IMG/VR virus record: IMGVR_UViG_3300045988_098498
Direction: 5' to 3' (one strand)
Origin: a virus
DNA length: 42,659 nucleotides
Both the position numbers and the translations under genes were made by a program. Every line of letters starts with the position of its first letter. Within the stretch, counting starts at the first letter, position 1. The notes beneath the pieces are model-generated. The model worked only from the letters and a program-made list of their open reading frames with translations, did no database searches and had not been told where the DNA came from. Shown here piece after piece: positions 2,740 to 41,886 of this stretch.

Positions 2740-4808
2740 AGAAAAAGGAGATAGAAAAGATTCCATTCCGGGGCGGTGTCAGGGCAGACAAACAGTATCG
2801 TAACACAGCAGTTGCATTTTTCCAGGATCTCCGTGGAGAGAGCCATCTGTTTGTTGAAGTTTACGAAAACAAAAAACGGGAGCTGCAGACCCCGTGGATC
2901 CGGATGGTGTTTACCCAGAAGGACTGGGGCTTGTATTATCCGGATGCAGGGGTCTGGTCGGCAGCAGGTCTGGATGAAGAAAGGGAAAAGATTGGCAGTA
3001 ACTGCAAAAAAAGAGACAACAAGTGTTATATGGCTAGGTCCCAGGGAGATATGGTGTGGAAGTTTACTGGAGATACGTGGGAACGGAAATACACCACCTG
3101 GGTAGGTGCCCTGCAGAGCCTGATCTATAACATCAAAGCGCAAAGAGTCCAGAAAAGGGAAGACAAACGTGCGGACAGGCTTAAAGAACGGGAACAGAAC
3201 ACCCCGCCGCTTCCGAAAGGACTGGAAGACTGGGCGAAAAAAACAGGCATCGGAACAGAACACTTCCTGTACTACAAGCGTCATGGAAGATATGCGGATA
3301 TAACCTGCTCTGCATGCGGACAGGTGACGGAGGCAGCGGTCAGAAGCAAAGACACCTACGAGGGACAGTTTGAAAAGATAATCCCGGTCCCGCAACATGA
3401 TTCGGTGGGAACGTGCCCTCATTGTGGTGCTACAGGGGTGTATAAGGCTCAGGGAAAGGCCAAAGGAGTATGGGGGCATGGGATGAACTGCTTTATTGCA
3501 CAGAGATATAAGGATGATGGAGCAGTGATCAGATATGTGGAGATAGAAAAAATATACAGACTGGATACTTCCCTGGATGAAAAAGAGATCATGATAGGCG
3601 CAGGCGAAAAGATGATCATAACTGAGATCGCAAGGACTTACCTGGAAAAAGGAAAAAGGCCACAGACAGATTATCATAAATTTAGTTCTTACTCCGGAGA
3701 ATTCTGGGATGACTGCAATTTGTGCGGAATGAACAACATTTCGATCAAAGCAGCAAAGATATATCCGGAAAGCTACAAAGAACTCCGGACCACATTTCTG
3801 AGATATTCGGCAGCAGAGATGTATGGAAAACATAAGACCATGTACAACCTGAAAGAATACCTCGAAAGATATATCCGATGGCCGCAGATAGAGATGTTTG
3901 TGAAAATGGGATTATATCATATAGCGGAATCCATAGTAGCGGGCTACTGCGGGATCATAGCAGACAAGGATGCCGTAAAGCCGGAATGCTTTCTTGGAAT
4001 CTACAAAAGAAGGCTCAGGGACCTGAAGACCTTGCAGGGGAATCTGGATTATCTGAAAATGTGGCAGATGGAGAAGCGGATGGGACTCCACCTGACAGTA
4101 CAGGAAAGCGTATTTCTTGCGGAAAGCCAGGTACGGCAGAACGATCTGAAAGAAATATTGAAATATACCACAGTAGCAAAATTCATGCACAGGATAGAGC
4201 AGTATTCCGGGTGCGAGATCCCTGATACTATGCAGGAACTCATGTGTGGAAGGGCAGCAGGTGCTGTAAGCGGCGTAACCCGCACTTATGTGGATTATCT
4301 GCATATGCGGATACAGAGGGGGTATGACCTGCATAACCAGATTTTCCTTTTTCCGAGAGACCTGAGGCTTGCCCATGACCAGATGGTCATTGAGACAAAT
4401 GCGGAAGAGATCCGCAAGAGAGAACAGGCAGTTAGCGAAAAATATCCGGACATCCGAAAGAACTACAGGGGTCTGAGAAATCAATATTTTTACGAAGACG
4501 AGGATTATCTGATACGGCCGGCAAGATCAGCAGAAGAGATCGTTGCAGAAGGAAGGATCCTCCATCATTGCGTCGGCGGGGACAGCTATCTGAATAAGCA
4601 TAACACCGGCCGGAGCACGATCCTTTTCCTGCGTTCAAAGTCAGTGCCGGAAACACCGTATATCACAATAGAGATCTGCGGGACAAAGATCCTGCAGTGG
4701 TATGGGATCCGAGATACAAAGCCAGATGAAATCAGGATAGAAAGGCATCTGAGAAGATACATAAAAGCATTAAAGGAAAAAGATCAGATAAAGTCAGTGA
4801 CCGCATAA
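2736..4808 (+). CDS. PcfJ-like domain protein (690 aa) with zinc-ribbon-like CxxC pairs
   Basis: C-terminal EGRILHHCVGGDSYLNKHNTGRSTILFLR is the signature I associate with PcfJ-like proteins (PF14284). CSACG...CPHCG motifs are present. ATGA overlap with the previous gene. Confidence 0.65.
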   Translation: MKKKEIEKIPFRGGVRADKQYRNTAVAFFQDLRGESHLFVEVYENKKRELQTPWIRMVFTQKDWGLYYPDAGVWSAAGLDEEREKIGSNCKKRDNKCYMARSQGDMVWKFTGDTWERKYTTWVGALQSLIYNIKAQRVQKREDKRADRLKEREQNTPPLPKGLEDWAKKTGIGTEHFLYYKRHGRYADITCSACGQVTEAAVRSKDTYEGQFEKIIPVPQHDSVGTCPHCGATGVYKAQGKAKGVWGHGMNCFIAQRYKDDGAVIRYVEIEKIYRLDTSLDEKEIMIGAGEKMIITEIARTYLEKGKRPQTDYHKFSSYSGEFWDDCNLCGMNNISIKAAKIYPESYKELRTTFLRYSAAEMYGKHKTMYNLKEYLERYIRWPQIEMFVKMGLYHIAESIVAGYCGIIADKDAVKPECFLGIYKRRLRDLKTLQGNLDYLKMWQMEKRMGLHLTVQESVFLAESQVRQNDLKEILKYTTVAKFMHRIEQYSGCEIPDTMQELMCGRAAGAVSGVTRTYVDYLHMRIQRGYDLHNQIFLFPRDLRLAHDQMVIETNAEEIRKREQAVSEKYPDIRKNYRGLRNQYFYEDEDYLIRPARSAEEIVAEGRILHHCVGGDSYLNKHNTGRSTILFLRSKSVPETPYITIEICGTKILQWYGIRDTKPDEIRIERHLRRYIKALKEKDQIKSVTA

Positions 4809-4818
4809 GGAGGAAAGC

Positions 4819-6075
4819 ATGGAATATGTACAGCTGAGCATGGATGAATACATCCAGAGTAAAAACGACATCAAAAATAATCTTGGGGGTATCGTAAAGA
4901 GCTTTGTCCGGATCGGATGGCAGCTGACCAGAATCGACCGGTCAGGTGCTTATAAAAATGACGGATACAGCAGCATAGCCGAATTTGCGGCAGCAGAATA
5001 TGGGATGAACAGGACCGGTGTCAGCCGTTTTATGACCGTATATGAAACATATTCTGCAGACGGGGATACACCGGAACTGAAAGAACAGTACCGGGAATTT
5101 AAGTTCTCGCAGCTGACCGAACTCCTGCAGGTCCAGGAAGCAGACCGGCAGATGTTCACGCCGGAAGTGAAAAGGGAGGATATCAGAGAATTCCAGAGGT
5201 TTGAAAAAGAAAATGAAGCAGATCCGGCCCGGCTGCTTGACTGGAAGGATGCAAAAAGCCCGGAAGAAAAGCTGAAAGCAACGATACAGGAGTTTTGCAG
5301 GGAGAATAAAGATATCCTCAACGCAGTGTACAGCTCAATTATGGAACCAAAAGACCTGGCAGAGATGATCAGCCCGTCCGGCAGCAGGAGTTACCGGAAA
5401 GGCACTGTGTATCTGATGTTTTACGAGGAAACAAAAGGGATCATGGTCAAGGTGTTCGGAGAGACGCCGGTGGATATCACATATCGATATTTCCTCGATG
5501 TTGTGCATAGCCTGTTCGATGAGTACGATGCAGGGGCCCATACCTGGGAGAAATGCTTCGGGGTACTGCCGGACGAGGGAACAACAGCCCAGAAGCAGGA
5601 AGAACCTGTGGAACCGAAAATGCCAGAGCATAGCGGTAAAAACATCGGGAATGTACATGAGGATATTTCGGCGGAGAAGGTGATGGAAAAACCAGAGATT
5701 GCGCCGGCGCAACCGGAAGAACAGATCCCTGGACAGGACAGTATCGATCAGCATCCGGAATATATGCCGGAACCGGTGCAAGAACCAGATATCCCGAAGA
5801 AACCAGAAGATTCTGTACCGGGGATCCATAAAGAAGAACAGAAGTCCGACCCAGTACCGGAAAACAATGAAACTATTCCGGAAGCTATTCCGGAAAAAGC
5901 AATAACCCGGAAAGAATATCTTGAAACGCTCACATTATACGGCTGGGCGGATTACGTGGCAGCAGCAATGCGGACCTTTGGAAGCATACCATTCTCCAGG
6001 TTACGAGAGATTGGCTTCTGGGAAGAATGGCTGTGTGGAAAAGTGGACAAAAAAGGACGTCCATGGATTGAGTAA
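4819..6075 (+). CDS. Putative HTH DNA-binding protein (DUF3102-like N-terminus) with an acidic, Pro/Glu-rich linker
   Basis: SD AGGAGG precedes ATG 4819. The N-terminal pattern GYSSIAEFAAAEYGMNRTGVSRFMTVYETYS resembles DUF3102/ParB-type HTH regions. The low-complexity P/E-rich stretch is encoded at about 5580-5900. The gene contains one copy of the 14-bp palindrome. Confidence 0.45.
   Translation: MEYVQLSMDEYIQSKNDIKNNLGGIVKSFVRIGWQLTRIDRSGAYKNDGYSSIAEFAAAEYGMNRTGVSRFMTVYETYSADGDTPELKEQYREFKFSQLTELLQVQEADRQMFTPEVKREDIREFQRFEKENEADPARLLDWKDAKSPEEKLKATIQEFCRENKDILNAVYSSIMEPKDLAEMISPSGSRSYRKGTVYLMFYEETKGIMVKVFGETPVDITYRYFLDVVHSLFDEYDAGAHTWEKCFGVLPDEGTTAQKQEEPVEPKMPEHSGKNIGNVHEDISAEKVMEKPEIAPAQPEEQIPGQDSIDQHPEYMPEPVQEPDIPKKPEDSVPGIHKEEQKSDPVPENNETIPEAIPEKAITRKEYLETLTLYGWADYVAAAMRTFGSIPFSRLREIGFWEEWLCGKVDKKGRPWIE
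5699..5712. repeat. 14-bp palindrome, copy 2 (inside the HTH-protein gene)
   Basis: Read directly. The extended 16-mer ATTGCGCCGGCGCAAC is shared with copies 3 and 4. Confidence 0.95.
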
Positions 6076-9287: not shown

Positions 9288-9313
9288 GCTGCCAACCCAC
9301 GGGCAGCAGTTTT
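9288..9313 (+). terminator. Weak hairpin plus T-run between the late activator and the tRNA
   Basis: GCTGCC (9288-9293) pairs with GGCAGC (9302-9307) and is followed by AGTTTT. Confidence 0.3.
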
Positions 9314-9388
9314 GGAACGTAGCTCAGTGGGAGGTAGAGCAGCTGGTTTATATTCAGTATGTCGATGGTTCGAACCCATCCGTTCCAA
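9313..9388 (+). tRNA. tRNA-Ile, anticodon UAU (reads AUA); CCA not encoded
   Basis: Manual cloverleaf. Acceptor TGGAACG/CGTTCCA (7 bp). D-stem GCTC/GAGC. Anticodon stem GCTGG/TCAGT (two G-U pairs). Loop TTTATAT with TAT at 9349-9351. 5-nt variable loop. T-arm GATGG-TTCGAAC-CCATC. Discriminator A. Confidence 0.8.
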
Positions 9389-9439
9389 TTTCTCTATTGT
9401 AGAGAAATTCCTAACATCATACATTTTTTGTAAAACGTC

Positions 9440-36663: not shown

Positions 36664-38232
36664 TTACTTTTGCTGGATTTTCGGATAAATATCTAAAGTA
36701 AAAGAGATGTCATCGCCATTTTTCCATGTATTTTTTGCGTTTTTAGTATAAACAGCCTTTTCTATCAATTCACGGAGAAATCGATTCTTTGTAGAGGTAT
36801 CCCACGTCCAGTAATTTGCGAGAAGATCCTCGCACTTGGGAATAAAAGAGGAACGTTGAAACTGAAGTTCCTGTTCATGTTCAATTTCTTGCTTCAGAGA
36901 AAGAATTACTGCATCGCAGGCAGACAGCTCGGCAGCAGTAGCACGGGAGCGTTCAAGAAATTCTTCCGTGGAGTAAATTCCCTGTTCAAGAAGATCATAT
37001 TGCTTTTCTTTTTTCTTCCTCAAAACATCAATTTCTTTTAATTTTCCCCGGATCATTTCTTCTTTCTCGGAAATAGAAAGAGAATATTCCTGATCAGAAA
37101 AATTGCTATTTAACTTGTAGCCATCTACAAGTTCCTGGATTCCGTCAAGAAGAGCTTTTTCAACAAGAGGGAGCTTACTACTTACATTGTTGCAGGAACT
37201 GTATGGACATCGAAGCAGATCAACCTGTCTGCCGCTTGGTGCTTTACGGGTCATAACATAGCCACATTTTCCACAACGAATAATACCGGCAAGTGGATTG
37301 CGGAGTACATGCAGAGAATTGAGCGGTCGTGCAGGATTTTGATTCACGATATCTTGGGCTTGCTGAAAAAGTTCCTTTGATACAATAGCAGGATGTCTGC
37401 CTTCAACAAGAATATAATCCTTAGCAAAAGGGCGAGAGATGGTTATTTGCCCATCTTGTATATGCTTTACAGCCTTTCGGCTGTTCCAGCGTATCATTCC
37501 TGCATACACTGGATTTCTAAGAATTGCCTGCACACGAGGGACGGTCCATAAACCACCATCCATGGTTTTAATTCCGGAATCATTTAATTTACGGCAGATC
37601 TTAGCCATTCCAATTCGCTCACCTGCCACTCCGTGGACATACAAATTGAATATGAGCTTAACGATCTCTGCCTGATCAGGAACAGGCTGCAGTGTCCATC
37701 CTTTTTCACTAACAAGTTTTACACGGGAATATCCGTAAGGCGGTTTACTGCCACAATATTTCCCCTCTTTTGCAGAAGATTCACGACCTGCAGTAAGACG
37801 GCGGCGAATGGTTTTATATTCTCGCCGAGACATAAAAAGGCCAAATTCGAAATATTCTTCGTCATATTCATTGTTTGGATCATAAGTTTTGAGCGGAGTA
37901 ATAATCAGTGTTTCAGAATATCGGAAGGCTCTGGCAACAACACCCTGATCTATAGTATCGCCCCTGGCCAGACGCTCTACTTCAACGACCAGAACACCAT
38001 CCCACATACCAGATTCAACTTCGCGGAGAACCTGTTGCATAACAGGTCGGGCAGAAATTGTCTCACCGGAAACAATCTCTTTATAAATTGCGCCTACATT
38101 ATAGCCACGTTTTTTAGCAAGATCCAACAGGATTCGCTCATGGCGTGCAAGAGTTTCACCTTCGCCCCTGGCTTCAGCCTCCCGATCAGCACGGGACTTA
38201 CGCAGGTAGATACATACATTTAAAAGTTCCAT
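36664..38232 (-). CDS. int: Large serine recombinase (phage integrase)
   Basis: ATG 38232 follows GAGGTGAT. The N-terminal resolvase domain has catalytic Ser in YLRKSRAD. A recombinase domain, a zinc-ribbon (CGKCG...C..C) and a C-terminal coiled coil follow. Confidence 0.9.
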   Translation of the reverse strand: MELLNVCIYLRKSRADREAEARGEGETLARHERILLDLAKKRGYNVGAIYKEIVSGETISARPVMQQVLREVESGMWDGVLVVEVERLARGDTIDQGVVARAFRYSETLIITPLKTYDPNNEYDEEYFEFGLFMSRREYKTIRRRLTAGRESSAKEGKYCGSKPPYGYSRVKLVSEKGWTLQPVPDQAEIVKLIFNLYVHGVAGERIGMAKICRKLNDSGIKTMDGGLWTVPRVQAILRNPVYAGMIRWNSRKAVKHIQDGQITISRPFAKDYILVEGRHPAIVSKELFQQAQDIVNQNPARPLNSLHVLRNPLAGIIRCGKCGYVMTRKAPSGRQVDLLRCPYSSCNNVSSKLPLVEKALLDGIQELVDGYKLNSNFSDQEYSLSISEKEEMIRGKLKEIDVLRKKKEKQYDLLEQGIYSTEEFLERSRATAAELSACDAVILSLKQEIEHEQELQFQRSSFIPKCEDLLANYWTWDTSTKNRFLRELIEKAVYTKNAKNTWKNGDDISFTLDIYPKIQQK

Positions 38233-38665: not shown

Positions 38666-39139
38666 TTATAAATTGTTGATTTTCATCACAGCCAGCTGCG
38701 GAATAAAATAGATCATATAATTATCCACAGCAACATACTGCCCGTATTTGGAACGGTAGCAGTCGATCACGTCTGCCAGATAATCATCCGGTACATCCAG
38801 ATGCTCAGCCATCTCATGTAGATTCCGGCAGCAGGCTTTGTAGGCTTCAATGATACCGATCAGCCCCACGCGGAGATTATAGCCATAGAGCCGGGCGCGG
38901 TATTCCTGTTTCCGGTTCATGGTGTCGCTCTGATCCAGGATGTTTCCGGTAGTGGTGCAGTGATGCCCGATCTCTTCGGCCAGCACACAGGACTTCTCGG
39001 CCTGGGTAGGAAGAGAACGATTGATAGCAATTCGGTTTTTATATAACCGGCCGCCGTAACCAGGAATATTTTTTTCTTTAACAACTAGATTTTTTGAGTC
39101 GGATAAAGTCAATAATTCTTCGTAAGTCAACAGGATCAC
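38666..39139 (-). CDS. ImmA/IrrE-family metallopeptidase-like protein (variant motif EEIGHH)
   Basis: VLAEEIGHH sits where the family has HExxH, so the first His appears replaced by Glu. The lysogeny-module context fits. The start is either GTG 39139 (adjacent to AAAGGAG) or TTG 39130. Confidence 0.6.
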   Translation of the reverse strand: MILLTYEELLTLSDSKNLVVKEKNIPGYGGRLYKNRIAINRSLPTQAEKSCVLAEEIGHHCTTTGNILDQSDTMNRKQEYRARLYGYNLRVGLIGIIEAYKACCRNLHEMAEHLDVPDDYLADVIDCYRSKYGQYVAVDNYMIYFIPQLAVMKINNL

Positions 39140-39175: not shown

Positions 39176-40231
39176 TTAAATATCTTTATGGCAACATTTT
39201 TTACAAGGTTGCAATCCTTGTTTTTGAGCATCGGAAAGTTCCAACTCAATAGGATTTTTTATGCCACAACAATGTTGATCCATATGATATTTATTGCTTT
39301 GGGACGAAATCCAGACAGGAGTTCGTTGAATTATATTTATGTTTAATATCTGACCAAGATAAGTTATATCTTCGGGATACATAGAACAGTGGCGACTTAG
39401 TTGCAGATTTAGAGCTTCACTTAAATGTTCAAATGGTTGCCGGTATCTTAACATATTTAACAGAAATAGTAATTGACTAAAACCATGAAGATTGTTTGTC
39501 TCGGCAGGAGGACGTAGCCTGCTACTGCATTCATGATTATATATTCGACCACCATGTGCTGACAAATTTCGATATTCAATACAGATAAACAAGGTGTCCA
39601 TCATTAAGGAAATAAGTGCAGTATCAGGAATGTTAAAAGTATTGGTATCATACATTTTCTGTGCAAGGGCGAGCTGTTCTTCGTGTTTAAATAAATTTAT
39701 AAAATTTACAATAGTGCTAAAATACACGCTTTTAAATAGAATCCAGGGCGGTACTACACCATATTTTTGAGAGTAATGTGCAATAGGATTCTTGTCAGTG
39801 TTTAAAGTTTTTTTCAATGTATCAAGGATTGCAGGTAAAGTAAAACGTTGCTTTCTTTTCTTTTTGTTGACGTAATTACGGTATTGAAGATAATTGTCTT
39901 GATTTGTTCCGTATTTATAAGCGATAACATCGGCAGCGGCCTCTTTAACGTATTCTTCTAAGTCGAGCATGGAAGCCATAACTGCATTTCTAAGGTTTTT
40001 GTCCAGTATATATAAAGACTGAATCTGTTCAAAAGTAACACCTGATCGATATCTTTTAGAACCTTCAGACATAATCGTGTAAGGATCACGATAACTTTTA
40101 ATTAAATTTGAATAGCCATATAATGCAAGTTCAGAACGGGCAAAATCGAGACTATTAATAATCAGTCCTTGCTTTTTTAATTTTTCAATCTGTTCATCTA
40201 CTGTTGCGTAGAAAATGGTATCTTTATCCAT
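39176..40231 (-). CDS. Abi_2-family (AbiD/AbiF-like) abortive infection protein with a C-terminal Cys/His-rich tail
   Basis: ATG 40231 follows GGAGGA. The pattern QIEKLKKQGLII...ARSELALYGYSNLIKSY...TFEQIQSLYILDKNLRNAV...PPWILFKSVYFSTIVNF...IEYRNLSAHGGRIYN follows the Abi_2 (PF07751) pattern. The tail is KYHMDQHCCGIKNP...QPCKKCCH. Confidence 0.8.
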   Translation of the reverse strand: MDKDTIFYATVDEQIEKLKKQGLIINSLDFARSELALYGYSNLIKSYRDPYTIMSEGSKRYRSGVTFEQIQSLYILDKNLRNAVMASMLDLEEYVKEAAADVIAYKYGTNQDNYLQYRNYVNKKKRKQRFTLPAILDTLKKTLNTDKNPIAHYSQKYGVVPPWILFKSVYFSTIVNFINLFKHEEQLALAQKMYDTNTFNIPDTALISLMMDTLFICIEYRNLSAHGGRIYNHECSSRLRPPAETNNLHGFSQLLFLLNMLRYRQPFEHLSEALNLQLSRHCSMYPEDITYLGQILNINIIQRTPVWISSQSNKYHMDQHCCGIKNPIELELSDAQKQGLQPCKKCCHKDI

Positions 40232-40254
40232 AAGTATCCTCCAAAATAATGCAA

Positions 40255-40287
40255 AAAGAGCTCTGGAATACAATTCCAAAGCTCTTT
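40255..40287 (-). terminator. Intrinsic terminator lying between the abi promoter and the abi RBS
   Basis: 14-bp stem (40255-40268 / 40274-40287). The single plus-strand mismatch becomes a G-U pair in the minus-strand RNA. A U-run leads into the GGAGGA of abi. Confidence 0.6.
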
Positions 40288-40307
40288 CGCGACCGCCCAG
40301 CAGTCAT

Positions 40308-40350
40308 TCACTAATTAGTGACATTATAACATATGCAAAAGCTTTGTCAA
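40308..40350 (-). promoter_or_regulatory. Consensus promoter plus 14-bp palindromic operator for abi
   Basis: rc TTGACA (40345-40350), 16 nt, rc TGTTATAAT (40323-40331). The perfect palindrome TCACTAATTAGTGA (40308-40321) sits at the predicted transcription start. Confidence 0.6.
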
Positions 40351-40395
40351 GTATTCAATACTAAAAAAATATTGATATATTTTATTTAAGAATGT

Positions 40396-40707
40396 TTACG
40401 TCCATTCTTTATCGTCCATCATAATATCATCCGCATGTTTCTTTTCTTCCTCAGTCGGGTTAAAAGCATGAGCGGCGTTGGGGATGAGAGCTTCCTCCAT
40501 CTGCTGGGGGGAGAGTGGATTTACAGTGATGATATTATCAGGGGCTTTGGACGGTTCTTCTGATACAGAATCATGCAATTCAATAATGCGGTCATATTCT
40601 TTCTGGAGGACAGTATCGACCATATCTTTACCGTGAGTGTCGAGCTCACGGTATTTTTTTATAAAATCACGATTATCATTAGAAATGAAATCTTCTTTTA
40701 TTGACAT
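40396..40707 (-). CDS. Repressor C-terminal-domain-like protein (103 aa) encoded as a separate ORF
   Basis: FIKKYRELDTHGKDMVDTVLQKEYDR resembles the region that follows the HTH in many Firmicutes XRE/CI-like repressors. Its ATG (40705-40707) lies inside the left 72-bp repeat, in the -1 frame relative to the HTH ORF and overlapping it. Confidence 0.55.
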   Translation of the reverse strand: MSIKEDFISNDNRDFIKKYRELDTHGKDMVDTVLQKEYDRIIELHDSVSEEPSKAPDNIITVNPLSPQQMEEALIPNAAHAFNPTEEEKKHADDIMMDDKEWT

Positions 40708-40767
40708 GTTAAAAACTTAATGGTATATTCGAGATATAAATAGAAGTGAGAGGAGCATCCATGAAAG
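40696..40767. repeat. Left arm of the perfect 72-bp inverted repeat (promoter, SD and ATG facing right)
   Basis: The reverse complement of 40997-41068 is identical base for base. The arm holds TTGACA (40701-40706), 17 nt, TATATT (40724-40729), GAGAGGAG and ATGAAAG. Confidence 0.95.
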
Positions 40768-41003
40768 TTGTGTGCTGGAGAATTAACGTATCCAAAAGTT
40801 TTTAATATATCAGATATATTATAAGCTTTACACATAATGAGAAAAGCATCAGGGCTTGGCTGACTGTTCCCACTTTCCCAGCTGTAAATAGTTTTTTCGG
40901 ATGCTTTAAAGCCTTTGGATTTTAATAAATCAGAAATTTCTTTTACCGACTTTTTGGCATCAACTCTACATTTTTTTAAATTTTCACCAATAGAACCTTT
41001 CAT
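40698..41003 (-). CDS. XRE-family HTH repressor (CI-like), 101 aa; the last ~22 aa are encoded by the inverted repeat
   Basis: ATG 41003 follows GAGGAG. MKGSIGENLKKCRVDAKKSVKEISDLLKSKGFKASEKTIYSWESGNSQPSPDAFLIMCKAYNISDIL is a canonical HTH_XRE domain. Confidence 0.8.
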   Translation of the reverse strand: MKGSIGENLKKCRVDAKKSVKEISDLLKSKGFKASEKTIYSWESGNSQPSPDAFLIMCKAYNISDILKTFGYVNSPAHNFHGCSSHFYLYLEYTIKFLTCQ

Positions 41004-41068
41004 GGATGCTCCTCTCACTTCTATTTATATCTCGAATATACCATTAAGTTTTTAACATGTCAATAAAA
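40997..41068. repeat. Right arm of the perfect 72-bp inverted repeat (promoter, SD and ATG of the repressor, facing left)
   Basis: Identical to the reverse complement of 40696-40767. It drives the XRE ORF. Confidence 0.95.
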
Positions 41069-41383: not shown

Positions 41384-41398
41384 ATGGAACGAATAACA

Positions 41399-41436
41399 AA
41401 AAGCTGACAGGAGCGCCGTCCCATCAGCTTTTGCCT
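41399..41436 (+). terminator. Intrinsic terminator after the cro-like gene
   Basis: AAAAGCTGA (41399-41407) pairs with TCAGCTTTT (41424-41432). The T-run continues. Confidence 0.55.
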
Positions 41437-41475
41437 AAATTTGTTCACCCTATGTATTTTGCAGACTGTTCACTT

Positions 41476-41509
41476 AAGCCCCAGTCCATTGCAGAAGCCC
41501 CAGACCATT
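41476..41509. repeat. Two tandem 19-bp-spaced copies of AAGCCCCAG(T/A)CCATT
   Basis: Copies at 41476-41490 and 41495-41509 differ at one base. They lie in a ~440-bp non-coding gap. Confidence 0.7.
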
Positions 41510-41886
41510 ACATACATGTTCAGTCACACCTGCGGCGCCAAGCGTTTCTATGAAATACTTCGCCACTTATGCAGTTTTAGTTCTGCAATTAAGTAAAAAA
41601 GATTAGCAGCCCATTAGTTGACGAATATAAGGGATTTTTTATAAGTATCACGGTTTTTATAGTAGTGTCTCTACTTAATACCTATAAAAAACACTTACCC
41701 AGTTTAAAGTGTCTTGGGAACCACTACGGCAAACCTTATAAAGGGAACAGGGCAAAGTCAAAAGTTTGGCCAAAATAAACCGCTCCTTTCATTGCCCGTA
41801 TTTGGGTTTATGAAAATATTTTAACATTATGTGAAAAATATTTCAATAATCCAGAACATAAAGAATCAGCTTAGGAGGTGAGAGAA

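What the first reader, a model, noticed from the sequence alone, without database searches (positions are those of the whole stretch)
39176..40350. Abi_2 (AbiD/F-like) abortive-infection gene between repressor and ImmA, with consensus promoter, palindromic operator, leader terminator and an extra Cys/His tail
The protein matches the Abi_2 pattern along most of its length. Three points stand out. (1) It splits the usual repressor-ImmA pair. (2) It has a near-perfect promoter (TTGACA-16-TGTTATAAT, 40323-40350, minus strand) with a perfect 14-bp palindrome, TCACTAATTAGTGA, at the predicted transcription start. A 14-bp-stem intrinsic terminator (40255-40287) then ends only a few nt before the abi SD. 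The order is therefore promoter, operator, terminator, gene, which suggests tight control by repression plus attenuation or antitermination. From memory, lactococcal abiD1 is also kept silent by a terminator and structure in its leader and is activated by a phage product. (3) The C-terminal ~35 aa (KYHMDQHCCGIKNPIELELSDAQKQGLQPCKKCCH) resemble the short Ada-type/'sunset' zinc-binding motif YHxxxC...A...G..PCxxC, which is not part of the canonical Abi_2 domain.
Basis: partly seen in the sequence, partly recalled or inferred. Interest (0 to 1): 0.65.

Follow-up and report, generated by a model that had tools for sequence, protein, structure and literature searches.

The report
Abi toxin gene with RNA antitoxin leader
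A prophage anti-phage toxin gene (AbiD/F type) is preceded by its own small structured RNA gene, most likely an RNA antitoxin of a recently described kind, and a piece of that RNA also turns up inside the tRNA gene clusters of large phages, which may be a counter-defence.

Summary
The interpretation needs revising.

- **Protein:** It is a true Abi_2/AbiD-F HEPN protein. Its only solved relative is PbAbiF bound to its ncRNA (8VZ6).
- **Leader:** The "promoter, operator, terminator" stretch is a self-contained small-RNA gene. It is 81% conserved across loci whose Abi proteins are only 40-67% identical. Two of its helices covary.
- **Distribution:** The RNA lies upstream of abi in 45 of 46 genome loci with upstream DNA, in 48 of 80 listed viral contigs, and in Streptococcus phages.
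- **Known kind:** The layout matches AbiF/ncRNA type III toxin-antitoxin systems published in 2025. The RNA is not Rfam abiF (RF03085), nor any other Rfam family.
- **Palindrome:** It is not a prophage operator. It occurs once in the window, its arm spacing varies, and it travels with the cassette. It straddles the predicted start site and remains unexplained.
- **Tail:** The Cys/His tail is conserved and Ada-like. It is a widespread repeat module, and tail-less relatives keep the same RNA.
- **Unexpected:** The RNA's 26-nt core also occurs without abi, inside co-oriented tRNA arrays of 78-216 kb phage contigs. This may be an antitoxin decoy.

Verdict: a new variant of a known kind, of moderate interest.

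The parts
40345..40350 (-). -35 hexamer TTGACA of the cassette's own promoter. The flanking GAATAC...AAG is also conserved across loci.
40323..40331 (-). Extended -10 element TGTTATAAT, 16-nt spacer from the -35.
   Evidence: One search gives a 12/12 match plus TG. It is conserved in about 70 distinct leaders.
40308..40321 (.). 14-bp palindrome TCACTAATTAGTGA straddling the predicted transcription start (A40316/A40315). Its 3' half, UUAGUG, is the conserved 5' end of the RNA. Its 5' half lies upstream of the canonical start.
   Evidence: Function unexplained.
40291..40316 (-). RNA core: single-stranded 5' AAUUAGUGAAU, then helix P2 (GACUGC-UGG-GCGGUC, 40305-40291) with a conserved U.G wobble.
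   Evidence: P2 is 99.6% paired, with CG/GC swaps 20:17. It is fully compensatory in Streptococcus phages. The same core is found in phage tRNA arrays.
40251..40290 (-). P3: intrinsic-terminator hairpin. It has a 12-bp stem (40284-40273 with 40269-40258), loop UGU and U-run 40257-40253. It is extended by A-tract:U-tract pairing and a closing pair beyond the U-run.
40238..40242 (-). Shine-Dalgarno GGAGG, 6 nt before the ATG.
39176..40231 (-). abi gene, 351 aa: Abi_2/AbiD-F HEPN protein, the predicted toxin.
39554..39571 (-). HEPN catalytic motif R221-N-L-S-A-H226.
   Evidence: R221, N222, A225 and H226 are invariant in 112 homologues. The motif corresponds to R202/H207 of AbiFCd and R210/H215 of PbAbiF (PMC12373285).
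39179..39328 (-). C-terminal Ada-like Zn-binding module (aa 302-351). Predicted ligands are H316, C321, C343 and C346.
38666..39139 (-). ImmA-like metalloprotease gene, 36 nt downstream of abi with no terminator between them.
   Evidence: phrog_87 gives 3e-33. Pfam Peptidase_M78 scores 19.1 bits, below its cut-off of 22.
40396..41003 (-). Prophage repressor gene: an HTH_3 N-terminus plus a C-terminal domain, 178 aa in intact copies. Here it is split by a 72-bp inverted duplicate of its own promoter and start (40696-40767).
36664..38232 (-). Large serine recombinase (integrase) at the end of the lysogeny module.

Best explanation
Window 40350-39176 (-) is a self-contained defence cassette of the AbiD/F type, inserted as a moron in the lysogeny module of a gut Lachnospiraceae prophage. 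It works like a type III toxin-antitoxin pair.

1. A strong constitutive sigma-A promoter starts transcription at about A40316.
2. It makes a roughly 60-65-nt RNA with three parts: a single-stranded 5' UUAGUGAAU, hairpin P2, and hairpin P3, which is an intrinsic terminator.
3. Most transcripts stop at the U-run (40257-40253) and accumulate as a small RNA.
4. A minority read through into abi, and on into immA.
5. The Abi protein is a HEPN RNase that is toxic or bacteriostatic when free. The small RNA binds the Abi dimer, with the conserved single-stranded GAAUG and P2 as the likely contact, and blocks the Rx4H active site.
6. Phage infection upsets the RNA:protein balance, through RNA turnover, transcription shut-off or a phage trigger. 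This frees the RNase and aborts infection.

**Shown here:** the family and fold of the protein; the existence, conservation, covariation and strict linkage of the RNA element; and the predicted promoter and terminator.

**Inferred from homologous systems (RCd22/AbiFCd and PbAbiF/AbiFr):** RNA-protein binding, neutralisation, toxicity and RNase activity.

The Ada-like zinc tail is an accessory nucleic-acid-binding module whose role is unknown.
For: **Protein.**
- Abi_2, AbiD and phrog_2158 all match, and the RNLSAH motif is invariant.
- The only PDB relative by sequence is 8VZ6_A, E=1.3e-8.
- By fold, the AF2 model (pLDDT 92.6) matches 8VZ6_A at Foldseek E=9e-10, TM 0.73.

**RNA conservation and structure.**
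- The leader is 81% identical (median) to the window in 36 loci. The abi CDS is 63%, the protein 56% and flanking DNA 53%.
- 97.1% of cells are paired, against 37-60% in slid controls.
- 47 cells show a change on both sides, against 17 in shuffles, with 0 of 500 shuffles reaching the observed value.
- At the top pair of P2, CG:GC is 20:17.
- P2 is fully compensatory (CUCCC/GGGAG) in Streptococcus phages Javan597 and MissG1, where model R1 still finds the RNA directly upstream of abi.

**Linkage.**
- R1 hits sit immediately upstream of abi, on the same strand, in 45 of 46 genome loci with upstream DNA.
- The one exception has a transposase gene abutting the abi start codon.
- 48 of the 80 listed viral loci carry the full leader.
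- Seven viral loci, about five lineages, have lost abi but kept the RNA: L083, L089, L114, L115/L116/L152 and L137. No locus has an expressed abi without the RNA. This is the decay pattern expected of a toxin-antitoxin pair.

**Same architecture in other clades.** Other Abi_2 clades show promoter, (A/G)AAUG/C plus hairpin, terminator, then SD-ATG.

**Literature.**
- C. difficile prophage AbiF has a SigA promoter, the ~100-nt RCd22 RNA, a Rho-independent terminator and rare read-through. The RNA neutralises the toxin in cis and in trans by direct binding (PMC12373285).
- PbAbiF/AbiFr has been solved by cryo-EM and AbiF is classed as type III TA (PMC12737573).
- In lactococcal AbiD/D1/F the upstream regions are more conserved than the genes and are needed to clone them (PMC13064643).
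Against: - There is no experimental datum for this RNA class. No transcription start, 3' end, binding or toxicity has been measured.
- The RNA does not match Rfam abiF RF03085 at E<=10, although the positive control works on phiC2 at 37.6 bits. Homology of the RNAs is therefore not shown. Only the architecture is shared.
- The same full leader precedes non-Abi cargo in a few prophages: a PemK/MazF-like protein in L083, a PDC-S02 candidate in L137 and a 106-aa membrane ORF in L115. A toxin-specific antitoxin does not predict this unless these are recent cargo replacements.
- P3 sequence conservation, and pairing that extends beyond the U-run, suggest a role in read-through or processed transcripts that the simple model does not explain.
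- The palindrome at the start site is unexplained.
Confidence: 0.6

Rival explanations
1. The leader is a cis-acting regulatory platform, not a toxin-specific antitoxin. The core (single-stranded UUAGYGAAUG plus a small hairpin) would be a nut-like or sensor RNA. A phage or host factor would recognise it, and terminator P3 would be read through only on that signal. In this way an infecting phage's own antitermination machinery would switch on whatever toxic cargo lies downstream. In large phages the same core would serve antitermination or processing at the head of tRNA operons.
For: - The same promoter-RNA-terminator unit precedes unrelated defence-like cargo: PemK_toxin in L083 (1.5e-16), PADLOC PDC-S02 in L137 (2.4e-20) and a membrane ORF in L115/116/152.
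- In L083 the swap starts exactly at the abi start codon, while near-identical prophages (L087, L104) carry abi.
- The core sits at or near the 5' side of co-oriented tRNA arrays in large phage contigs.
- A single-stranded box plus a short hairpin resembles the lambda boxA/boxB layout (own knowledge).
- Saunier et al. themselves speculate that the RNA could sense a signal and favour read-through (PMC12373285).
Against: - No alternative or antiterminator fold is predicted.
- Non-Abi cargo is rare, about 5 lineages, and fits toxin loss with antitoxin retention.
- Two experimentally studied AbiF systems work by RNA-protein binding (PMC12373285, PMC12737573).
- The window prophage has no second copy of the core.
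- No N-like factor has been identified.
Confidence: 0.2
2. One reading: the palindrome at the start site is an operator for a DNA-binding repressor (XRE, Cro or another). The hairpin is an attenuator. abi would then be doubly controlled, by repression and by antitermination.
For: - A perfect 14-bp palindrome lies exactly over the predicted start site.
- A palindrome is kept in 65 of 70 distinct leaders.
- Its 5' arm lies upstream of the canonical start, and large-phage copies of the core lack it. It therefore looks like a DNA-level feature rather than an RNA one.
Against: - It is the only copy in the window at up to 3 mismatches, and none lies in the repressor/cro intergenic region.
- It travels with the cassette into prophages with different repressors.
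- Arm spacing varies from 1 to 7 nt and arm length from 4 to 7 bp, which is unlike a dimer operator.
- Streptococcal members of the RNA class lack it.
- Tail-less Abi variants keep it, so the Zn tail is not its obvious partner.
Confidence: 0.08
3. Nothing special: a plain strong promoter for abi, plus the terminator of the upstream repressor operon. The apparent conservation would come from recent horizontal spread of one cassette.
For: - The exact protein occurs in 488 blocks of the metagenome collection.
- The hairpin has an A-tract upstream and so looks bidirectional.
Against: - The leader stays about 70-85% identical where proteins have diverged to 40-45% identity and flanks are unrelated.
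- Compensatory changes occur in both helices.
- The promoter lies upstream of the terminator in every locus.
- The unit is found behind unrelated upstream genes.
Confidence: 0.04

Closest known systems
AbiFCd / RCd22 of the Clostridioides difficile phi027 prophage and phage phiC2 (Saunier et al. 2025, PMC12373285)
   Same: - A prophage-borne Abi_2 HEPN protein.
- Its own SigA promoter, a ~100-nt structured ncRNA, a Rho-independent terminator, then SD and abi on the same transcript.
- An Rx4H motif required for toxicity.
- An RNA that neutralises the toxin in cis and in trans.
   Different: - The protein is only 28.5% identical over 64% of its length.
- RCd22 has two RF03085 hairpins. This RNA has a different sequence and fold and gives no RF03085 hit.
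- phiC2 abi sits in the lysis module, whereas this one sits in the lysogeny module.
- AbiFCd has no C-terminal Zn module.
PbAbiF-AbiFr ribonucleoprotein, PDB 8VZ6 (Zilberzwige-Tal et al. 2025, as summarised in PMC12737573 and PMC12373285)
   Same: - It is the only solved relative, by sequence (E=1.3e-8) and by fold (E=9e-10, TM 0.73).
- It is a HEPN dimer, with each monomer bound to one cis-encoded ncRNA that blocks the active site.
   Different: - It is 300 aa against 351 aa, about 20% identical, and has no Zn tail.
- The RNA could not be compared, because no RNA chain is available in these tools.
[quoted passage not shown]
   Same: - The same Pfam/PADLOC family.
- An upstream region more conserved than the gene.
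- Weak expression, and genes that can be cloned only with the native leader.
- Now regarded as protein plus RNA.
   Different: - They are plasmid-borne.
- abiD1 is reported to be activated at the level of translation by phage Orf1 and by cold (PMC2661086).
- Their leader sequences were not compared here.
ToxIN / AbiQ-antiQ, the classical type III toxin-antitoxin systems
   Same: The order is promoter, RNA antitoxin, terminator, toxin. The terminator sets the RNA:toxin ratio. The phenotype is abortive infection (PMC13064643).
   Different: - The toxins have a Kid/MazF-like fold, not HEPN.
- The antitoxin is a tandem array of 2.8-5.5 repeats processed by the toxin. Here there is a single-copy RNA with no repeats.
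N-terminal zinc domain of E. coli Ada (Pfam Ada_Zn_binding PF02805; PDB 1ADN, 1U8B, 1ZGW, 1WPK)
   Same: - The tail shares the ...EAxxxG(F/Y)xPCK(R/K)C half-site and the beta-beta-beta-alpha topology.
- Ada is the best PDB hit to the tail profile (E=0.02-0.04).
- hhalign gives 94% probability.
- The top 3 Foldseek hits for the tail model are all Ada (TMq 0.5-0.6).
   Different: - The ligand set is His-Cys-Cys-Cys, not Cys4. The methyl-accepting Cys38 position is His316.
- There is no Pfam hit on this tail itself.
- The module is shorter and occurs as a promiscuous tandem repeat in thousands of proteins.
Pseudo-ToxI of phage PhiTE: a phage-encoded RNA mimic of a type III antitoxin (Blower et al. 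2012; cited as bib14 in PMC13064643; details from own knowledge)
   Same: Phage genomes carry a copy of the antitoxin RNA's core without the toxin. This is what the abi-less core copies in large phage tRNA arrays look like.
   Different: - No functional evidence exists here.
- The phage copies share only the 26-nt core, are embedded in tRNA operons, and are conserved features of several phage lineages rather than escape mutants.

Membership tests
Pfam Abi_2 (PF07751) / PADLOC AbiD / AbiD-F HEPN group | Profile match above the curated cut-off | tested here: met
   Abi_2 scores 101.2 bits against a cut-off of 25.6, E=1.1e-28. AbiD gives 1.5e-35. phrog_2158 gives 1.8e-45.
Pfam Abi_2 (PF07751) / PADLOC AbiD / AbiD-F HEPN group | HEPN R-(N/H/D)-x3-H catalytic motif | tested here: met
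   R221-N-L-S-A-H226. R221, N222, A225 and H226 are invariant in 112 homologues.
Pfam Abi_2 (PF07751) / PADLOC AbiD / AbiD-F HEPN group | Fold like a solved AbiF | tested here: met
   The AF2 model has pLDDT 92.6. Foldseek finds 8VZ6_A at E=9e-10, TMt 0.73, and no other hit below E=0.1.
AbiF-type type III toxin-antitoxin (protein toxin plus cis-encoded ncRNA antitoxin) | A conserved structured ncRNA immediately upstream of the toxin gene, on the same strand, with its own promoter | tested here: met
   The RNA is present in 45 of 46 genome loci with upstream DNA, is more conserved than the CDS, and covaries.
AbiF-type type III toxin-antitoxin (protein toxin plus cis-encoded ncRNA antitoxin) | An intrinsic terminator between the RNA and the toxin ORF, with the toxin made by read-through | tested here: inconclusive
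   The terminator is predicted and conserved, and no promoter lies between it and the SD. Termination and read-through have not been measured.
AbiF-type type III toxin-antitoxin (protein toxin plus cis-encoded ncRNA antitoxin) | The RNA binds the toxin and neutralises it; the toxin is a growth-inhibiting RNase | not testable with these tools
   This needs toxicity, co-purification and EMSA assays. It is inferred only from PMC12373285 and PMC12737573.
Rfam abiF RNA (RF03085) | Covariance-model match (consensus CCCGCC-A-AGC...GCU-CAAAUC-GGCGGG) | tested here: not met
   There is no hit at gathering score on the window or at E<=10 on 40180-40420. The positive control on phiC2 gives 37.6 and 19.5 bits. 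The best Rfam match to the leader is SpF01 at 27.5 bits, below its gathering score of 55.
ToxI/antiQ-like repeat antitoxin | A tandem array of short RNA repeats | tested here: not met
   There are no direct repeats in the leader and only one R1 hit per locus.
Ada_Zn_binding (PF02805), for the C-terminal tail | Pfam profile match on this protein | tested here: not met
   The tail alone gives no hit at E<=10. Homologous modules in other proteins reach 16.8-25.0 bits against a gathering score of 23.
Ada_Zn_binding (PF02805), for the C-terminal tail | Four Zn ligands in the Cx3C...Cx2C pattern and the Ada N-domain fold | tested here: inconclusive
   The pattern is H316-x4-C321...C343-x2-C346, with His in place of Ada Cys38. 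Profile against PDB gives E=0.02 over 16 aa. hhalign gives 94%. The Foldseek top 3 are all Ada, but at E about 0.7-0.9.
   There is no NCBIfam hit on the tail or on multi-copy proteins carrying the module.
   It is the single copy in the window at up to 3 mismatches. The centre varies from 1 to 7 nt among leaders. It is conserved across prophages with different repressors.
Transcription attenuator or riboswitch-like leader | Mutually exclusive terminator and antiterminator folds | tested here: not met
   The RNAalifold consensus and the MFE fold give only P2 plus P3. No conserved alternative pairing was seen.
ImmR/ImmA-type lysogeny module | An HTH repressor gene adjacent to an M78 anti-repressor protease gene and an integrase | tested here: met
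   The order is repressor (HTH_3), then [RNA-abi], then the ImmA-like gene (phrog_87 3e-33), then the serine integrase. The cassette is inserted between repressor and ImmA only in this lineage.

The most novel reading that the evidence does not exclude
The 26-nt core of the Abi leader RNA, UUAG(U/C)(G/A)AAUG plus hairpin P2, is carried without abi by several lineages of large phages (78-216 kb contigs). There it lies inside co-oriented tRNA arrays, next to drum and ROOL RNAs. The most novel reading is that these are phage-encoded mimics of the AbiD/F RNA antitoxin. They would be co-expressed with spare tRNAs and would neutralise the prophage-encoded HEPN RNase. That would make this an RNA decoy against an AbiF-type system, and a hint that tRNAs are this RNase's targets. 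Orphan full leaders in prophages that have lost abi would be the same idea in temperate form.
Probability: 0.3. Interest if true: 0.8.

Novelty: new variant of a known kind. Interest (0 to 1): 0.5.

Why it matters
AbiD/F proteins are the proposed ancestors of Cas13, and their RNA partners were recognised only in 2025 from two examples. Four things follow from this locus.

- **A third RNA class.** It defines a structurally different and very widespread RNA class for the family. The class occurs in gut Lachnospiraceae prophages and in cultured Streptococcus phages, and it is missing from Rfam. A covariance model (R1) is ready for annotation.
- **A likely contact element.** It points to a common "AAUG plus hairpin" element across Abi_2 clades as the probable protein-contact site.
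- **A new fusion.** It shows a HEPN toxin fused to an Ada-like zinc module. That module is itself an unannotated repeat domain found in thousands of proteins.
- **A testable counter-defence.** If the abi-less core copies in phage tRNA arrays are antitoxin decoys, they would link phage tRNA arrays, structured phage ncRNAs and AbiF-type defence in one arms race. They would also suggest what the RNase cleaves.

Tried and rejected
- **Rfam identity.** The whole window at gathering score and the leader at E<=10 give no family. FuFi-1 and a tRNA lie elsewhere. RF03085 is rejected after the positive control on phiC2.
- **Sub-threshold SpF01 lead.** I followed it into Streptococcus phage abi loci. No SpF01 or abiF hit appeared there, only an unrelated antisense sRNA, Spy779816, near the integrase.
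- **RF03085 in distant Abi_2 loci.** A scan of 18 such loci found none at gathering score, so it gave no extra control.
- **Palindrome as an RNA hairpin (P1).** I first read it this way because of its covariation and variable loop. I set that aside because its 5' arm begins 1-5 nt after the -10 box and the large-phage copies of the core have no such pairing.
- **Palindrome as the prophage operator.** Rejected.
- **The 72-bp inverted repeat as an invertible switch.** Rejected in favour of an inverted duplication that disrupts the gene, because otherwise 100%-identical contigs lack the second copy.
- **Word-indexed search with the tail profile.** It returned only 7 fragments. The exhaustive search was needed.
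- **NCBIfam 'sunset' model.** None was found.
- **Close homologues in cultured phages.** There are none above 35% identity.
- **Abi-less copies of the streptococcal-type core.** None were found in viral contigs.
Full report
**1. Observation**

The minus-strand ORF 40231-39176 encodes a 351-aa protein, with SD GGAGG at 40242-40238.
- It matches Pfam Abi_2 (E=1.1e-28, aa 37-232), PADLOC AbiD (1.5e-35, aa 9-280) and phrog_2158.
- Upstream lies a 12/12 sigma-70-type promoter with the TG extension (40350-40323). It is the best site in the 3.3 kb scanned.
- A 16-pair hairpin followed by a T-run lies at 40288-40254.
- The 14-bp palindrome TCACTAATTAGTGA (40308-40321) is unique in the window, even with 3 mismatches.
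- The 73-nt leader folds at -34.9 kcal/mol, z = -6.3.

**2. The protein**

About 695 homologues were found, nearly all about 350 aa and full-length.
- In 112 of them the HEPN motif R221-N-L-S-A-H226 is invariant.
- The only solved relative is 8VZ6_A, "PbAbiF dimer bound to ncRNA". It is found by sequence (E=1.3e-8) and by fold (AF2 model pLDDT 92.6; Foldseek E=9e-10, TM 0.73).
- No cultured phage has a homologue above 35% identity.
- The exact protein is nevertheless encoded in 488 blocks of the metagenome assembly collection.
- A 77%-identical relative is named from Blautia faecis.

**3. The leader is an RNA gene**

I compared the 200 nt upstream of abi in 41 genome loci whose proteins are 40-67% identical to the window protein. 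Forty of them show the same unit almost base for base. L017 lacks it (see section 9). The unit reads:

GAATAC-TTGACA-N16-18-TATAAT, then (N)UUAGYG-AAUG, then hairpin P2, then GCAAAAGAG, then hairpin P3 with a U-run, then SD and ATG.

- Median identity to the window is 81% for the leader, 63% for the abi CDS, 56% for the protein and 53% for the next 100 nt upstream.
- RNAalifold predicts P2 and P3.
- On the MAFFT alignment, 97.1% of cells are paired, against 37-60% when partners are slid.
- 47 cells show changes on both sides, against 17±3.5 in shuffles, and 0 of 500 shuffles reach the observed value.
- The top pair of P2 is CG in 20 sequences and GC in 17. A U.G wobble in P2 is kept in 36 of 38.
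- A covariance model (R1) finds one copy immediately upstream of abi in every genome locus with a protein of at least 37% identity and available upstream DNA. It also gives weak hits in L049 and L055.
- R1 finds the full leader in 48 of the 80 listed viral loci.
- It also finds the RNA upstream of abi in the cultured Streptococcus phages MissG1 and Javan597 (E=6e-6 and 3e-3). There P2 is completely different in sequence (CUCCC/GGGAG) while AGUGAAUG and the P3 base are kept. Twelve further IMG/VR contigs carry this streptococcal form.

**4. What is known**

- Saunier et al. 2025 (PMC12373285) showed that the C. difficile prophage AbiF is preceded by a SigA promoter, the ~100-nt ncRNA RCd22 and a Rho-independent terminator.
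  - Most transcripts stop there and rare read-through makes abiF mRNA.
  - RCd22 neutralises the toxic HEPN protein in cis and in trans by direct binding.
- Zilberzwige-Tal et al. 2025 solved PbAbiF with its ncRNA (8VZ6) and placed AbiF at the root of Cas13 (summarised in PMC12737573 and PMC12373285).
[quoted passage not shown] It notes that the upstream regions are more conserved than the genes (PMC13064643).

The window cassette has this same architecture. So do other Abi_2 clades in my loci (Veillonella, Limosilactobacillus, Salinicoccus, Trichococcus, Gemella). Each has a promoter, an (A/G)AAUG/C element followed by a hairpin, a terminator, then SD-ATG.

**5. Not the known RNA family**

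- Rfam 15 has the abiF motif (RF03085). It detects phiC2/RCd22 at 37.6 and 19.5 bits.
- It gives nothing on this leader, even at E<=10.
- Its consensus, a GC-rich hairpin with a CAAAUC internal loop, is unlike P2/P3.
- No other Rfam family reaches threshold. The best is SpF01 at 27.5 bits against a gathering score of 55.

The RNA is therefore a distinct, uncatalogued class attached to a known kind of system.

**6. Context**

- The cassette sits in the lysogeny module. The order is repressor, [RNA-abi], ImmA-like protease (phrog_87, 3e-33), then large serine integrase.
- G+C drops from 42-48% in the phage body to 35-39% in this region.
- Relatives share only the block 40516-38873, at about 88% identity.
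- L198 has a different HTH repressor with the same last 43 residues.
- In most other prophages the order is ImmA, RNA-abi, integrase. In streptococcal phages it is CI-like repressor, abi, integrase.

So "splitting repressor and ImmA" is a lineage-specific insertion point of a mobile moron, not a functional design.

There is no terminator between abi and immA (36 nt apart). Read-through transcripts therefore probably continue into immA.

**7. The palindrome**

- A palindrome with 4-7-bp arms lies between the -10 box and AAUG in 65 of 70 distinct leaders. Its centre varies from 1 to 7 nt, unlike a dimer operator.
- It is not repeated in the immunity region.
- It accompanies the cassette into prophages with other repressors.
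- I first took it for an RNA hairpin.
- However, its 5' arm starts 1-5 nt after TATAAT, upstream of the canonical start about 7 nt after the -10.
- Streptococcal leaders lack it.
- Large-phage copies of the core leave UUAGYGAAUG single-stranded.

It therefore remains unexplained. TSS mapping would settle it.

A second oddity concerns P3. Its pairing continues past the U-run, with a covarying closing pair (GC 20, AU 12, GU 6). This points to a role in read-through or processed RNA.

**8. The tail**

- Residues ~305-348 are predicted with confidence as beta-beta-beta-alpha (pLDDT 86-91 in the full model and 88 alone).
- H316, G323, C343 and C346 are invariant. C321, A335, G339 and P342 are at least 90% conserved.
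- Pfam and NCBIfam do not hit the tail.
- Four weak but concordant lines point to the Ada N-terminal zinc domain:
  - profile against PDB, E=0.02-0.04;
  - hhalign, 94%;
  - the Foldseek top three are all Ada, TMq 0.5-0.6;
  - Ada_Zn_binding hits on homologous modules, up to 25 bits against a gathering score of 23.
- The ligand set would be His-Cys3.
- An exhaustive profile search shows that the module is promiscuous. It hits 6357 cluster representatives at E<=1e-3, with up to 16 tandem copies per protein, some alongside peptidoglycan-binding domains.
- Tail-less relatives (L042, L043, L045, L046, L050) and relatives with a different tail (L040) keep the same RNA.

So the tail is an accessory, probably nucleic-acid-binding, and is not needed for the RNA partnership.

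**9. Copies without abi**

A pattern for the core, AATGACTGSTGKSCGGTC, hits at least 119 viral contigs.

- *Orphan leaders in prophages.* Seven of the 48 full leaders, about five lineages, have no abi behind them.
  - L083 has a PemK/MazF-like protein that begins exactly at the former abi start.
  - L137 has a PADLOC PDC-S02 candidate.
  - L115/116/152 have a 106-aa membrane ORF.
  - In L089 the integrase follows directly, and L114 has nothing recognisable.
- *abi without a leader.* Only L017 shows this, and there a transposase gene abuts the abi start codon.
- *Core copies in large phages.* Of 31 abi-less matches examined, 27 keep the extra 5' TTAG(T/C)G or (A/C)TAGC(G/A) prefix, which is expected by chance in about 1 in 256. 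These 27:
  - lie in contigs of 78-216 kb;
  - are followed by different, internally covarying hairpins;
  - sit in tRNA arrays whose tRNAs are all on the same strand as the motif;
  - usually have the next tRNA 44-420 nt downstream, with drum RNA or ROOL nearby.
- Three matches (L085, L127, L147) look like chance, and L119 keeps only a degenerate prefix (GTTGCG).

**10. Mechanism and rivals**

- *Best reading (0.6):* an AbiF-type type III toxin-antitoxin cassette. The short terminated RNA inhibits the HEPN RNase and the terminator sets the ratio. Infection releases the toxin.
- *Main rival (0.2):* a cis-acting sensor or nut-like leader that gates read-through into interchangeable toxic cargo. 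The cargo swaps and the tRNA-operon copies favour it. The absence of an alternative fold and the two experimentally studied AbiF systems argue against it.
- *"Plain promoter plus upstream terminator":* 0.04.

**11. Verdict**

- The finding is real.
- The protein is an ordinary member of a known family.
- The regulatory leader is a new RNA variant of a recently established protein-RNA system.
- The Ada-like tail is a new fusion.
- The most interesting lead is the abi-less core in large-phage tRNA arrays, which may be an RNA decoy against AbiD/F defence.
- Interest is 0.5, and the novelty rating is "new variant of a known kind".

Noticed in passing
window 40696-40767 and 40997-41068: These are perfect 72-nt inverted repeats, 229 nt apart. 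Each holds a TTGACA-17-TATATT promoter, an SD and ATG AAA. Otherwise 100%-identical metagenome contigs (L194, L195) have only the right-hand copy and one intact 178-aa repressor ORF. In this window the left copy is an inverted duplication that splits the repressor into an HTH half (the 'XRE' gene) and a 103-aa C-terminal ORF. It also adds a convergent promoter. It could be a real mutation or an assembly artefact.
   Followed up: partly
window 41398-41625 (-): FuFi-1 RNA (Rfam RF02986) scores 129 bits against a gathering score of 59.6. It lies just downstream of the Cro-like gene on the opposite strand and includes a terminator at 41432-41399. Its function is unknown in the literature (PMC5737381).
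   Followed up: no
L075-L154, e.g. L149 1364-1412, L078 24-110, L108 1617-1660: The 26-nt core of the abi leader RNA occurs without abi in 78-216 kb phage contigs. It lies inside co-oriented tRNA arrays, next to drum RNA (RF02958) and once near ROOL (RF03087). At least two different conserved 3' extensions follow it, and no Rfam family covers it.
   Followed up: partly
L083 (about 4735-5700), L137, L115/L116/L152, L089, L114: A full leader (promoter, RNA, terminator) is followed by other cargo or by none. L083 has a PemK_toxin-like 277-aa protein, L137 a PADLOC PDC-S02 candidate, and L115/116/152 a 106-aa membrane ORF. In L089 the integrase follows directly.
   Followed up: partly
window 39179-39328 (Abi aa 302-351); proteins P0128-P0277: The Ada-like His-Cys3 module of the tail is a widespread repeat unit of about 45 aa with no annotation of its own. 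It hits 6357 cluster representatives at E<=1e-3, with up to 16 tandem copies in proteins of 600-1260 aa, some with PG_binding_1. It has no Pfam or NCBIfam model.
   Followed up: partly
L200 1401-1473, L201 1416-1488 (Streptococcus phages Javan597 and MissG1): The same RNA class lies upstream of the annotated 'Abi family protein' genes of cultured streptococcal phages. It is unannotated there and has a fully compensatory P2.
   Followed up: yes
L053, L056-L072 (upstream 170 nt of abi): Other Abi_2 clades (Limosilactobacillus, Veillonella, Salinicoccus, Trichococcus) each have their own conserved unit of promoter, small hairpin RNA and terminator abutting the SD. All contain an (A/G)AAUG/C element just before a hairpin. 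None is in Rfam at gathering score.
   Followed up: partly
window 38666-39139 (-): The ImmA-like protein has AEEIGHH where M78 peptidases usually have HExxH (my reading of the translation). Pfam Peptidase_M78 is below its cut-off (19.1 against 22), although phrog_87 is strong. A promoter-like site lies inside abi on the same strand (39565-39536, 11/12) and could drive immA.
   Followed up: no
window 9312-9389 (+): A phage-borne tRNA-Ile with anticodon TAT.
   Followed up: no
L199-L201, between abi and the integrase, opposite strand: Matches to S. pyogenes sRNA Spy779816 (RF02589) lie antisense between abi and the integrase in three Streptococcus phages. One is above the gathering score, at 75.9 bits.
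   Followed up: no
L017 about 3100-4000: A transposase gene on the opposite strand abuts the abi start codon and replaces the leader. This Abi also carries G227R next to the HEPN motif and an alternative C-terminal tail shared with L040.
   Followed up: partly
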